A stretch of DNA of 64,000 bases, from NCBI RefSeq assembly GCF_017348835.2, contig NZ_CP071375.1. One strand, given 5' to 3'. This document shows positions 36,301-42,300 of the stretch, piece by piece (the first letter of the stretch is position 1; each line of letters begins with the position of its first letter). Source of the DNA: Escherichia coli (GTDB lineage Bacteria > Pseudomonadota > Gammaproteobacteria > Enterobacterales > Enterobacteriaceae). Position numbers: made by a program.

Positions 36301-39300
36301 CGCCATTATTACCGTGCTCAAATGCATAAAGCACCAGATCGACAGCATCCTCAAGGGTCATCATGAAACGAGTCATGTTTGGATCAGTGACAGTCAGCGC
36401 TTTACCTGCTTTGATCAGATCAACAAACAGCGGAATCACCGAACCACGAGATGCCATAACGTTGCCATAGCGAGTACCACAAATCACCGTTTTATTGCTG
36501 TTTACATTTCGGGATTTAGCGACCATGACTTTCTCCATCATCGCCTTAGAGATACCCATGGCATTGATTGGATAAACCGCTTTATCAGTACTTAAACACA
36601 CAACGCGTTTTACTTCGTTTGCAATTGCAGCTTCGAGAACGTTTTCGGTGCCGAGCACGTTAGTCTTAACCGCTTCCATTGGATGGAATTCACATGATGG
36701 CACTTGTTTAAGGGCGGCAGCATGGTAGATAAAATCAACGCCACGGCTGGCATTGAGTACACTGCGATAATCCCTGACATCGCCTATGTAAAACTTAAGC
36801 TTCTCACTATTGTATTTCTTGCGCATATCATCTTGCTTTTTTTCATCGCGCGAGAAAATGCGAATTTCTTTAATATCAGTTTCCAGAAAACGATTTAAAA
36901 CTGCATTTCCAAAGGAACCTGTTCCGCCTGTAATCAAAAGCACTTTATCTGAAAACATTTAATACCTCTTAAGAAATCTTATAACTTATCAATGCTGCGC
37001 ATGTACATTAAGGCCCTTTCTTTAGCCGTTGGAAGCTTGCTAAAAATTAAGTCGGCCTTTTCTTGCTTTATCACTTTATCGTGTACGCCTTCAACTCCAG
37101 AAATGATTTTGTCACAAATATCATTGGCATCATAAGGATCAAAATATATTGCGCTGTCGTCACACACTGTATGAGCAAATGGTAGATCAGACGTGAAGAT
37201 CATTTTTTTGAAATACATGGCTTCTACATAACTGGCACTGAAACACTCCAGTAACGTTGGCAAAAATAGTGCATCACAATAATGATATAATGCTGGACAT
37301 TGATTAATGGAAACTGGCCCAACATTAATTACACGATGGCTATACCGTTCGGGAATATCCGCCATCGAAGAACTTAACGTAACAATGAACTTGTAATTAT
37401 CTGGCAATAACTCAATTAGCTTGGGTATCACGGTTAGGTTTTTGTGAGGATAATCATGTGAAATTGTCAGAAGGTAAATGTCCCCCACATTCCTCTCCGG
37501 TAAATCGTCTAAGATACTATTATCGTATAAATCCTCATTCTGCAAAATCGCATTGATTGTATTAGGAACAGTGACGACATGACTGTCCTTAAAATGATAT
37601 TGTTCCACAAGTTTATTTTTAGCATCATCAGTTTCAACAAATATAAGATCTGCATTTTTTTTATAAAAATAAGGTTGTAGGCGCAGTAAAAGTATCTTTT
37701 TTACCTTTTCACAAAAACTTAACTTCGGAAATACTTGGCTCACATCATAAATCAGCCATGGCAACGCGAATCCAACGGCATGCTTAACATTCTTCGGGCT
37801 CCAGTAACTTGGGCCAAATATCGTAAAGACTTTCGTAATTTTATTTTCAGCAACGAGCTGATCTAAATCTCGTCTTGATTCAACATTGAACACATTTGAT
37901 GGTGTTTTTCTGATAATTTTGCATCTTGATAGTGTTTCTCCTGAGAGTTGTTTCGCAACTACAGGTGAAACTGCTGCAATGAAATGTTGCCCACCTTTAG
38001 TTAACTCTTCTAATACAGATACAGCAACCTGAACACCACCACCCACATACAGATTAGATGCATTAATCAGCAAACTCATCAATATCTTCCCTTATTTTAA
38101 CTGCTATAGACATCTTCGTCGAAAAAGGATTATTTTTTAGGTGTATTTTCTATCCTTCGAGGCTCGACTTTTCTAATGAGCAGCAAAAGGAACAACACAA
38201 TTAAGTATGGAATGATTAAGACAAATTCCCCAAAGAAATAGTTTCCAAACAGCATAAACACGATCGCTTTCATAAAACACGCCTGTAACAGACAATATTT
38301 AATATTGCTGGATGTTTTATTGTAGATAATTTGAAGCAATAAGCCAATAATAAATGAATAGAGTATTACACCAGCTAATCCTAGATCATTATAGAAATAG
38401 TATATAAATGTTTTTGCATTGAAAAAACCAACCTCATAGTCAGTGAACCCCATGGAGTTACTATCGTAATAGGTACCAAAGAACGGCTTAAGAATAAACT
38501 TAAGACCACCCCATATATATGTGGGTTCGAATGATGAGTTAATTAATAAATTCAGATTCTGAAAATTCATTGCAACATAGGTGTAAATCTGGCTAAAAAG
38601 CGAATTTGCCATCCCATCACCAAATTGAGTAGAGGCGCGACTTGTTTCTGAAATCCGCATTGCACCGATATACAAAAGCAATGCCATCGGTAGCATAACC
38701 ATCATTAGTTGTTTGAACCCTAGCGTAATTTTACGTGGAATCAGAAAAATATAGATGGCACCTAACATGAATACTAAAAATTCTCCCCTTGATACCTCAT
38801 AAACCAATGCAACTACAATACTGAAAAAAACATAGGATAGAAGGAAATACTTTCTCACACGCCCTTGTCGATATGAGTACTTAAGTTCAAATAGAGCAGC
38901 AAGTGCTATGTAAGGCATTGATACATCTATGAAATTCAACAACGGAGGCGCATTTGGAACTAATGATTTTAAATCACTTCCTGCACCAGACAGAAGTGGT
39001 GGATTAGTGAGCATCACTCCAAAGCGCATAAAGAAAGCAACGACTGATAAAGCTACAATAAAATTAAAAAATACGCGATAAAATAAGTTAAAGTCAAAAC
39101 GCTGAAAACTAAAATTATTTTTATCTATCTTTTTTGAAAATACAAATGGGGCAACAAAGAAAACACCAGCAAGTAAAATAGCACTTAGTGTTTCCAGACT
39201 TAATTCTGATTGCAATTGATGGTCATACAGAATATCAACCGTAGACAGGGAAGCTGAGAAGTACCAAAAAACAATACCAATTCCAAGAGGATGAATAATA

Positions 39301-42300
39301 TCTTTTGTTTTTAAAACAATTAAAGAATATAAGACCAAAGCTATTATAAAGAATGCAATTGAGATCATAATGGGCTCTACCGCGAATTTACTTATTATTA
39401 TACGCGAGATGCTTTGCGCGCGAAATGAAATAACAATAACCAAGTAACACTAACCATCCTGTAGCCAATTTTCCATATAGATAGTCTTCTAGCTCAAATT
39501 TCACATTGGCGAATACTGGGATGCAATAATATGACATCAAAATGAGACAAACAACACCACTGACACACACCATTTGTTTGCGCAAATCTAATCCATTCAT
39601 TACATGGTAATATATTGCAGTAAATGCAAAGGGGATAACAGCAAGTGTTGCCATATGTAATTCAGAAACGAGGTTTCCATACTTAGTGAAATTTTCTATA
39701 AAAAATTTCATAACAACGTTTGCAATAATTACGCCCGACAATGTTACTACAAGCATAATAAGACTCTCTTTAACAAACAAACGCTTACCACTTTGACTAC
39801 ACTGCCTAATAACTTTGACAAAAAGCAACTCCGCACAGGTCGAGGGAATTATCATTAGGGCACTAAATGCGAATATGATAACGCTATAATTACCTAGTTG
39901 CTCACGACCACCGGAATCATCAATAAAAAAACGGTCCATGACAAGATATAAAAAGGTAAATATTGCATTAAGGAATAACAAAGCCGATGGTTTAAACAAG
40001 AACTTTAATCTTGTTAACAACAACTTAGGGATCAGGAACTTTTTTAGTCCCTTTTCCACTCTATACAGTCTTATAATAGCTAAAGCATAGCAACCTAAAC
40101 TCGAGTAAATATAAACATCAAAATTGTGCGTTATGATATACAACACTAGTGGAATAAGCACAGGAAAGAACTGTGAATATAAAACTAGCCAAAGCATTTC
40201 ATCAATCCGGTTTGTCGCCCGATAGTATGCTTTAATAATATTACTTATCGATATAAATACTCCACACAAGGTGAGTATAATAACTGTCAAATTAGAATGG
40301 TTAAAAAATAAAGCCACCAACAAAATTGTTAACGCCCCAATAATATTCGTTAACAATACAGTTGTAACTAATAATTTTTTTTCTCTTTCCTTTTTTAGTG
40401 GAATAAATCGATCTAAGGAAAATCGTGCACCAAAGTGTGAGTAGTCCACAAATTGCTGCCAGGTTCTAGCAAGAGTAAGATCACCTAGCTGAGCTGTTGT
40501 GAGATATTTCATCATGACTAGACTAAGGAATATATTGAGAAATTGAATAGCATAATTTATCAATATATATATTAACCCTTTTTTAATCATGGTTTTTCAC
40601 CACGTCCTGAATTACCTCTTCATAAAAGCCATCACGCATAGGTATATTATTTTCGATATTAGCGATAATTTCTTGATATTTACTCAGGTAGACATCATTA
40701 TAATTTTCATGTGGCATGATGTGTTGCTTAGGTAAAATATCAGAATGTCTCCGGCTCAACGATACCATATAAAGCAATACTAATGCCCGTTTACGAACTT
40801 CATCATCCAGTTTTGCTAACCCCGAGATCGAATCTAAAATATTGTAATAAGATTGAACAGATTCAGGTTCAAGGGTAATACCAAAACCGGCATAGTATCC
40901 TTTTCCAGCAGTTACTGCAGGAATCCCAAGGCATGAAAATTCCAGTCCTGCCGTCCCTTTTGCCGTAACAATGCTGTCTGCAAAATCTGCAATAGAATTA
41001 GTATTCAAATCAACCGGCATCATATAAATATTATCCAGTTGATTAGCCTCAATTAAGCTCTCAACTCCTCCCTTTTCATTCCACATGTACGAACTTGGAT
41101 GAGCTTTTACAAAACAGTTAATATTTCGATTTTTATTGAGGCGAATTAGCGTTTTTTCCAAGAAATCATAATAGTCATTAAATAGTAACCCCTCACCAAC
41201 ATGAGGTGAGTCAGAGAACGCATGTGACATGACAACAACATTTTTTTTACGAATATCAACTTTAGGGTAAATAGATTTTAACTGTTCAATACTATATTTT
41301 TTCTTATTTTGATAAGCATTTTTTACATCTATTTGATCAACGTTACCTTCTAATCTGTCATAGAAATATTTATACGCTCTGTCAACAAAATCAATTGCAT
41401 GAAGGTTCTGCAAAAATGCTTCTTGCGTTGGTTTCAGGAAGTGTTCTTTAATATTTATTGCAGGTCCATAACATTTATAGGCATATATATCTTTAAGGAA
41501 TACTATGCCGTTATTGTGATGTCTAATTTGACGAGGCAACATGCCAAATTCAGCATAGACATTATGGCTAGTTACAAGATATTTCGGATTATATTTTTCC
41601 AACATTAACTCATTGTTATGAAATGTTAGAAATGATCTGAATATCAATCTTAAATGTTTAACCTCAATTTTTTTAACAGTATATTCGTTAGGTCTGAATC
41701 GAATGAGAGTATCGTAAATGAGATCACCAATCTCAACGCCGCGATAGTTTAGATTGATCAAAGATTTTGCAGACCTCGATCCTAACATGGTTTTAAGTGT
41801 TGCAATGACAGCGGGTACAAACACCTTAGGATGGAAGAATCCACGCCACCAGCAATAAAAATGATTAATATTGAAAGAATTATAAATATGACTGACATTG
41901 CTACCTGTAATATTAAAGCCTCGAATATATACAACAGGTTGGACTCCTGTTTCTTGCTGTATTGCTTTTGCTATTCTTGCCTTATCCATAATACTTGCAG
42001 GACATGCAATGATACCCTCAACCAGACAATATTCTTTTTTTCTATTAGTTTGAATTCTAGTTGATTTCTCTGACTTCCATAACCCGCTGTTCAATTCTAC
42101 AAACTTATTTTCAATTTCATCTCGCTGATAGGGTTTGAGATAGCGAAGTATCGTTTTTATTTTTGATAACATTAAATTTAACTACCTCTTCATTTCCAAA
42201 ATGCAAATGTAAAAATCAACATTTCAAACTTAATATTCATTCAATAAATGATAAAAACTAAAGTGAGAAACCATCATCAACGATAATGTTCTGACCTGTA

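What the first reader, a model, noticed from the sequence alone, without database searches (positions are those of the whole stretch)
38130..39443. Wzy start ambiguity and overlap with wzx
The longest frame begins at a TTG that overlaps the 3' end of wzx by 56 nt. An internal ATG at 39368 gives a 19-nt gap but has a weak RBS. Wzy proteins are serotype-specific, low-expression membrane proteins and their starts are often misannotated.
Basis: seen in the sequence. Interest (0 to 1): 0.25.

Follow-up and report, generated by a model that had tools for sequence, protein, structure and literature searches.

The report
E. coli O108 wzy start codon
The O-antigen polymerase gene of E. coli serogroup O108 starts at the ATG 19 bases after the flippase gene, not at the upstream TTG, which makes this an ordinary annotation question that public annotation already answers correctly.

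Summary
On the minus strand the longest frame runs from TTG 39443 to 38130 (437 aa) and overlaps the wzx stop codon (39390-39388) by 56 nt. The in-frame ATG at 39368 lies 19 nt after wzx and has only a weak Shine-Dalgarno match (-3.0 kcal/mol, no better than chance).

The window is the E. coli O108 O-antigen cluster, 99.99-100% identical to strain PE164. Comparison with relatives resolves the ambiguity in favour of the ATG (412 aa):
- All 42 homologues (33-83% identity, 369-424 aa) begin at the aligned Met, and none covers the 25-residue extension.
- In 7 of 7 syntenic loci from other genera, a stop codon closes the wzy frame 6-48 nt upstream of that ATG.
- The TIGR04370 polymerase profile begins 18 residues after the ATG.
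- The 412-aa protein occurs on 236 contigs, while the 437-aa form is absent from about 15 billion proteins.
- RefSeq annotates the ATG in all five complete O108 genomes.
- The family topology (11 TM, N-terminus periplasmic, no N-tail) fits poorly with a tail carrying three positive charges.

The fairly strong SD-like site upstream of the TTG is simply the codons of the conserved Wzx motif TGWLVLLGY. An upstream in-frame start occurs in 20 of 59 genes in this window. The finding is ordinary and already known.

The parts
38130..39368 (-). wzy, O108 O-antigen polymerase, 412 aa, true CDS from ATG 39368 to stop TAA 38132-38130
   Evidence: RefSeq CDS WP_053884260.1 maps to these coordinates. TIGR04370 scores 131.5 bits. 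All homologues start at this Met. The exact 412-aa protein is found on 236 contigs.
39369..39443 (-). Non-coding (in the wzy frame) upstream extension of the open frame, 25 codons from TTG 39443. It consists of the 19-nt spacer plus the last 56 nt of wzx.
   Evidence: The frame is closed in 7 of 7 homologous loci. No homologue covers it. The 437-aa form is absent from the protein collection. AF2 pLDDT is 37-50 over residues 1-20.
39388..40590 (-). wzx, O108 O-antigen flippase, 400 aa. Its C-terminal motif TGWLVLLGY supplies both the SD-like site and the TTG.
   Evidence: The Wzx C-termini of 8 loci are aligned by eye.
39369..39387 (-). 19-nt wzx-wzy spacer. It contains the weak SD-like GGTAGAG (39375-39381) 6 nt before the ATG. 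This is the probable site of termination-reinitiation coupling.
   Evidence: Sequence. SD energy is -3.0 kcal/mol. Homologous loci have spacers of -4 to +28 nt.
39453..39461 (-). SD-like CAGGATGGT 9 nt upstream of TTG 39443. It is made of the codons for Wzx residues T-G-W.
   Evidence: -7.2 kcal/mol, top 2.7% of positions. The same DNA motif is present in L002, L003 and L008, where no long frame follows it.
40583..42172 (-). orf10, a 529-aa KpsS/Gtr59-family putative non-2-ulosonic acid transferase, immediately upstream of wzx (8-nt overlap)
   Evidence: Pfam Capsule_synth 27.6 bits. PMC4487303 reports 63% identity to A. baumannii Gtr59. It is syntenic in L002-L008.
36979..38079 (-). GT4-family glycosyltransferase downstream of wzy (orf13 in PMC4487303). 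RefSeq starts it at ATG 38079, one codon after the TTG at 38082.
   Evidence: The 367-aa TTG form is absent from the collection.

Best explanation
wzy of the E. coli O108 O-antigen gene cluster is translated from ATG 39368 to give a 412-aa polytopic inner-membrane polymerase. Its first residue opens transmembrane helix 1 at the periplasmic face. The 75 nt of open frame upstream, back to TTG 39443, is a chance extension that happens to lack a stop codon in this lineage. The TTG and the SD-like site in front of it are by-products of the codons for the conserved Wzx C-terminal motif TGWLVLLGY. Shown here: the start position is conserved, the upstream frame is closed in relatives, and the SD at the ATG is weak. 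Inferred: initiation at the weak-SD ATG is helped by translational coupling to wzx, whose stop codon lies 19 nt upstream, and the poor initiation signal together with rare ATA codons at positions 8-9 keeps Wzy at the low level typical of these polymerases.
For: (1): 30 homologues (31-83% identity) all begin at the column of Met26 of the long frame, and none has residues aligned to positions 1-24; homologue lengths are 369-424 aa and query coverage never exceeds 94% (412/437).
(2): in the syntenic loci L002-L008 (named sources: Enterobacter mori, Trabulsiella, Cedecea, Providencia, Acinetobacter; the rest are unnamed assemblies) the wzy frame is closed by a stop 48, 27, 15, 15, 39, 6 and 21 nt upstream of the conserved ATG. 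Five of the seven have no upstream in-frame ATG, GTG or TTG at all. In L002, which has the same 19-nt spacer and the same GCTTGG, a TAA follows the TTG after 9 codons.
(3): the TIGR04370 profile (positions 3-396 of 396) maps to residues 44-419 of the long frame, so the family begins about 17 residues after the ATG.
(4): the exact 412-aa sequence is on 236 contigs under the name 'O108 family O-antigen polymerase'. The 437-aa form is not among about 15 billion proteins.
(5): RefSeq annotates the ATG in all five complete O108 genomes.
(6): the AF2 model has 11 TM helices. K+R density across 30 homologues is 0.21 per residue in the predicted cytoplasmic loops against 0.047 in the short periplasmic loops, which gives an N-out/C-in topology. 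Homologues have on average 0.1 residue before TM1. The extension carries R8, R14 and K19 and is not hydrophobic enough to be a TM helix (Kyte-Doolittle 1.2 or less).
(7): codons 1-10 differ from L002 and L003 mostly by synonymous changes (GCA/GCT, TTT/TTC, GCT/GCC), whereas the upstream wzy-frame 'peptide' is interrupted by stops in both.
(8): wzx-wzy spacers are short in all 8 loci (-4 to +28 nt), which is consistent with coupling; the SD is weak in 7 of 8 loci.
(9) PMC12004945 describes rare 5' codons and very low basal expression as typical of wzy genes.
Against: Local signals taken alone favour the TTG: it gives the longest ORF, and its SD-like duplex is -7.2 kcal/mol against -3.0, with a tolerable 9-nt spacer. 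The extension is intact and invariant in all five complete O108 genomes, so within-serogroup variation cannot exclude some initiation there. There are no ribosome-profiling or N-terminal proteomics data. Translational coupling and the N-out topology are inferred, not measured.
Confidence: 0.93

Rival explanations
1. In E. coli O108 the TTG at 39443 is used, alone or alongside the ATG, to make a 437-aa Wzy isoform whose coding sequence overlaps wzx by 56 nt.
For: The SD-like CAGGAUGGU 9 nt upstream gives -7.2 kcal/mol, in the top 2.7% of positions. The frame is open and unchanged in all five complete O108 genomes. Local mRNA structure around the TTG is weak, at -4.7 kcal/mol against a background of -8.2 +/- 3.5.
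Against: The extension is not conserved. The frame is closed in 7 of 7 related loci, including the 82-83% identical ones. No homologue carries it. It is absent from 15 billion predicted proteins. Both the SD-like site and the TTG are explained by the conserved Wzx motif TGWLVLLGY. A tail with three positive charges would have to cross the membrane in a family that has no N-tail. AF2 gives it pLDDT 37-50. TTG is an inefficient initiator in E. coli (established knowledge).
Confidence: 0.05
2. Translation starts downstream of 39368, for example at the in-frame TTG at codon 11 (39338), giving a shorter protein.
For: The SD at the ATG is at chance level. An in-frame TTG exists at codon 11.
Against: Residues 1-10 (MISIAFFIIA) are conserved in pattern across 30 homologues, and 27 of the 30 have their first Met in exactly that column. 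Substitutions in codons 1-10 against L002 and L003 are mainly synonymous. A later start would truncate TM1, which has AF2 pLDDT 77-96.
Confidence: 0.02

Closest known systems
E. coli O108 Wzy (RefSeq WP_053884260.1; BAQ01516.1 / UniProt A0A0A8J5N0 from the Iguchi et al. O-AGC set; cluster first described by Perepelov et al. 2010, PMID 20331420)
   Same: The DNA is 100% identical to strains PE164 and F2_81 over 38000-39700. The 412-aa product from ATG 39368 is identical to the protein carrying the NCBI name 'O108 family O-antigen polymerase'. The flanking genes and their order are the same.
   Different: Nothing.
Wzy of Enterobacter mori (P0004) and other NulO-associated clusters, including the A. 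baumannii capsule Wzy (P0029; the 47%-identical AHB32586.1 is mentioned in PMC10920833)
   Same: Identity is 47-83% over the full length. The module is the same: KpsS/Gtr59-like transferase, then wzx, wzy and a GT4. The N-terminal Met is the same, and the wzx-wzy spacer is short.
   Different: In these loci the frame upstream of wzy is closed by stops within 6-48 nt. The downstream sugar genes differ in some loci (L005-L007).
SEDS glycosyltransferases (FtsW, RodA) and the O-antigen ligase WaaL (GT-C_B fold)
   Different: Sequence identity is 7-13%, and neither Foldseek nor a sequence search gives a significant hit. This protein is predicted to have 11 TM helices with the N-terminus out, against 10 or 12 TM with the N-terminus in. 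The O108 Wzy cluster is not assigned to any CAZy GT family (PMC10920833).
Shigella flexneri Wzy/Rfc expression control (Daniels et al. 1998, cited in PMC12004945)
   Same: The GC content is low (33.7% against 47.4% for the window). There are rare ATA codons near the 5' end and a poor initiation signal.
   Different: Expression was not measured here. The proteins are not detectably similar in sequence.

Membership tests
Wzy / oligosaccharide repeat unit polymerase (NCBIfam TIGR04370) | Profile match above the curated cut-off over the full profile length | tested here: met
   131.5 bits against a cut-off of 40; profile positions 3-396 of 396 map to residues 44-419 of the long frame.
Wzy / oligosaccharide repeat unit polymerase (NCBIfam TIGR04370) | Polytopic inner-membrane protein with 10-14 TM helices and a large periplasmic loop that carries the conserved residues | tested here: met
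   This is a prediction only. AF2 (pTM 0.83) gives 11 TM helices and a 92-residue loop at 264-355. Invariant columns cluster in the predicted outer loops: D157/K159, R219/G220, R263-N298, F341-D353, G400-G405. PMC12004945 gives 10-14 TM helices as typical.
Wzy / oligosaccharide repeat unit polymerase (NCBIfam TIGR04370) | Encoded next to wzx in a Wzx/Wzy-dependent O-antigen cluster between galF and gnd | tested here: met
   The order is galF, NulO genes, orf10, wzx, wzy, GT, fnlA, wbjC, wecB, GT4, wbuC, gnd, ugd, wzzB.
Wzy / oligosaccharide repeat unit polymerase (NCBIfam TIGR04370) | Polymerises Und-PP-linked O units (a wzy mutant has a semi-rough phenotype) | not testable with these tools
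   This needs an LPS gel of a deletion mutant.
O108 family O-antigen polymerase (NCBI protein name) | Near-identity to the O108 reference Wzy, starting at the same residue | tested here: met
   The 412-aa translation from 39368 is an exact member of the named cluster and occurs on 236 contigs. RefSeq CDS coordinates coincide with it in five genomes.
GT-C_B fold lipid-PP-oligosaccharide glycosyltransferases (SEDS / WaaL) | Structural similarity of the TM core to FtsW, RodA and WaaL | tested here: met
CAZy BP-Pol families GT122-GT135 | Assignment to one of the defined sequence families | not tested
   PMC10920833 states that the cluster containing the O108 Wzy (8 sequences at the time) was left unclassified. 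I did not compare it with the CAZy family profiles.
Genuinely overlapping gene pair or dual-start isoforms | The upstream start and extension are conserved as an open, coding frame in relatives | tested here: not met
   The frame is closed in 7 of 7 syntenic loci. No homologue has the extension.

The most novel reading that the evidence does not exclude
O108 strains might make a minor 437-aa Wzy isoform from the TTG at 39443, using the SD-like site inside wzx. The positively charged N-terminal helix of that isoform would stay in the cytoplasm and could disturb insertion of TM1, giving a lineage-specific way to lower the level of active polymerase or to couple it to wzx translation.
Probability: 0.04. 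Interest if true: 0.3.

Novelty: already known. Interest (0 to 1): 0.06.

Why it matters
It matters little. The correct start fixes the N-terminus of a serogroup-typing gene, and every public annotation I examined already uses it. The check is mainly useful as an example. For AT-rich O-antigen genes with weak ribosome-binding sites, neither the longest ORF nor the best local SD is a reliable guide to the start. The position of stop codons in syntenic relatives settles the question cheaply.

Tried and rejected
- **ops-like element.** CGCGGTAG at 39377-39384, in the wzx-wzy spacer, matches 7 of 8 bases of the RfaH ops core. I considered a mid-operon RfaH reloading site. The window holds 37 one-mismatch matches against 32 +/- 4.7 expected, so this is chance. 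The T11/G12 pause bases are absent. The real JUMPstart ops lies at 51147-51154 on the minus strand.
- **Within-serogroup polymorphism as a natural experiment.** The five complete O108 genomes have no substitution in 39369-39443, so this was uninformative.
- **Pfam.** There was no hit for Wzy or Wzx.
- **First exact look-up of the long form.** It used a DNA reference that may translate the TTG as Leu, so I repeated it with an explicit Met. The result was the same: absent.
- **mRNA structure around the two starts.** Values were -6.8 and -4.7 kcal/mol against a background of -8.2 +/- 3.5, which does not discriminate between them.
- **Hydropathy alone.** The Kyte-Doolittle scan missed TM2, so I took the topology from the AF2 helices plus the K+R bias.
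Full report
**What is there**

On the minus strand of the window, the ORF list and the sequence show a frame open from a TTG at 39443 to a TAA at 38132-38130 (437 aa). 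The upstream gene runs from 40590 to 39388 (400 aa). The two overlap by 56 nt.

The next in-frame start is the ATG at 39368, 19 nt after the upstream stop. No other ATG, GTG or TTG lies between the two candidates, and a TAG closes the frame 84 nt upstream of the ATG.

**Identity of the locus**

- Megablast against complete E. coli genomes finds five chromosomes at 99.9-100% identity. All annotate 'O108 family O-antigen flippase', 'O108 family O-antigen polymerase' and a glycosyltransferase.
- The whole 64-kb window differs from strain PE164 by 3 bases.
- It spans the colanic acid genes, galF, the O108 O-antigen cluster, gnd, ugd, wzzB, the his operon and beyond.
- The long frame matches NCBIfam TIGR04370 (oligosaccharide repeat unit polymerase) at 131.5 bits against a cut-off of 40. 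Pfam finds nothing for Wzy or Wzx.
- The O108 O-antigen contains 8-epilegionaminic acid and L-FucNAc (PMC7685785; PMC4487303). This fits the legionaminic-acid-type genes upstream and fnlA/wbjC/wecB downstream.

**Local signals do not settle the start**

- The ATG has only a 3-bp anti-SD match (-3.0 kcal/mol), a value reached by 31-38% of all positions.
- The TTG has CAGGAUGGU 9 nt upstream (-7.2 kcal/mol, top 2.7% of positions).
- Predicted mRNA structure around either start is unremarkable.

On these signals alone the TTG would look as good as the ATG or better.

**Comparative evidence settles it**

*Protein alignment.* A search of 5.8 billion protein clusters returned 42 homologues at 33-100% identity, 369-424 aa long. 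None covers more than 94% of the 437-aa query, which is exactly 412/437. In the alignment of 30 of them, every sequence begins at the column of the ATG-encoded Met, within 0-3 residues. Nothing aligns to the 24 residues before it.

*Stop codons in relatives.* Predicted N-termini could all share one gene-caller bias, so I fetched the DNA of seven syntenic loci and read the frame upstream (L002-L008). The named sources are Enterobacter mori, Trabulsiella, Cedecea, Providencia and Acinetobacter; the rest are unnamed assemblies.
- In-frame stops lie 48, 27, 15, 15, 39, 6 and 21 nt before the conserved ATG.
- Five of the seven loci have no upstream in-frame start codon at all.
- L002 is the most telling. 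It has the same 19-nt spacer and the same GCTTGG, but a TAA follows the TTG after nine codons.
- Codons 1-10 differ between the window, L002 and L003 mainly by synonymous changes. The upstream 'peptide' is broken by stops in both relatives.

*Profile and databases.*
- The TIGR04370 profile begins at residue 44 of the long frame, which is residue 19 of the short form.
- The exact 412-aa protein is on 236 contigs under the O108 polymerase name. The 437-aa form is absent from about 15 billion proteins.
- RefSeq uses the ATG in all five genomes.

**Why the TTG and its SD-like site exist**

Both fall within the codons for the Wzx C-terminal motif T-G-W-L-V-L-L-G-Y (ACA GGA TGG ... CTT GGT). That motif is conserved in the Wzx proteins of all eight loci, so the DNA signals are by-products of wzx coding. 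The O108 lineage simply lacks a stop in the wzy frame over the next 25 codons.

Such upstream in-frame starts occur in 20 of 59 annotated genes of this window. This one is the longest.

**Topology**

- An AlphaFold2 model built on the alignment (mean pLDDT 81.7, pTM 0.83) gives pLDDT 37 and 50 for residues 1-10 and 11-20, and above 90 from residue 31. It has 11 transmembrane helices and a 92-residue loop at 264-355.
- Across 30 homologues, K+R density is 0.21 per residue in the loops assigned to the cytoplasm and 0.047 in the short periplasmic loops. This gives an N-out/C-in orientation. On average 0.1 residue precedes TM1.
- The extension (MVIVISFRAQSISRIIISKFAVEP) carries three positive charges and is not hydrophobic enough to span the membrane.
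- It would therefore have to be exported against the positive-inside rule. This is an inference from established membrane-protein biology, not a measurement.

**How it probably works**

Shown here:
- The start is at 39368.
- The SD there is weak in 7 of 8 loci.
- The wzx-wzy spacer is short in all of them, from -4 to +28 nt.
- GC content is low (33.7% against 47.4% for the window), and rare ATA codons sit at positions 8-9.

Inferred: ribosomes terminating at the wzx stop reinitiate at the nearby ATG. The poor signal keeps Wzy scarce, as reviewed for Wzy polymerases generally (PMC12004945).

**Comparison with the known**

- The protein is the known O108 Wzy.
- Foldseek and sequence searches of the PDB found nothing significant.
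- PMC10920833 notes that the small cluster containing the O108 Wzy was left outside the CAZy families for lack of diversity. The 42 clusters found here suggest that this is no longer a limitation.

**Verdict**

The ambiguity is resolved in favour of ATG 39368, wzy does not overlap wzx, and the finding is already correctly annotated in public records. A low level of initiation at the TTG cannot be strictly excluded without initiation mapping. Nothing suggests that it matters.

Noticed in passing
window 38079-38082 (minus strand): The glycosyltransferase downstream of wzy has the same kind of start question in miniature. A TTG at 38082 is immediately followed by an ATG at 38079. RefSeq uses the ATG (366 aa), and the 367-aa form is absent from the protein collection.
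   Followed up: partly
window 40583-42172 (minus strand): The 529-aa gene upstream of wzx is annotated 'hypothetical protein' in RefSeq. It has a Pfam Capsule_synth match (27.6 bits). PMC4487303 reports it as 63% identical to A. baumannii Gtr59, a KpsS-family putative non-2-ulosonic acid transferase. That paper also suggests the published O108 linkage may need reassessment. PMC7685785 lists O108 as having one glycosyltransferase fewer than expected, which this gene may explain.
   Followed up: partly
L002-L008 around position 200-5500; window 36979-42172: The four-gene module (KpsS-like transferase, wzx, wzy, GT4) is syntenic in all seven loci fetched; the named sources are Enterobacter mori, Trabulsiella, Cedecea, Providencia and Acinetobacter. 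The Wzy family now has at least 42 clusters at 90% identity, against the 8 sequences cited by PMC10920833 as too few for a CAZy family. Invariant residues include R140, D157, K159, R197, R219, G220, R263 and the block FFGNYFFG (396-405).
   Followed up: partly
L007 1767-2989 (Providencia sp. PROV201): wzx is called as two ORFs (282 aa and 108 aa) instead of one of about 400 aa. This suggests a frameshift, a nonsense mutation or a sequencing error in that genome's flippase.
   Followed up: no
window 56470-56850: A tandem array with a 96-bp period, 3.9 copies and 92% matches lies in the wzxC-wcaK intergenic region. The unit contains REP-like palindromes, so it is probably a BIME cluster.
   Followed up: partly
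window 51147-51154 (minus strand): An exact ops core GGCGGTAG lies in the galF to O-antigen-cluster intergenic region. This is the expected JUMPstart/RfaH site of the operon. The 7-of-8 match in the wzx-wzy spacer (39377-39384) is at chance frequency.
   Followed up: yes
L005 4190-4233: In the locus holding homologue P0010, the called glycosyltransferase (446 aa) overlaps the end of wzy by 44 nt. This may be another over-extended start call of the kind examined here.
   Followed up: no
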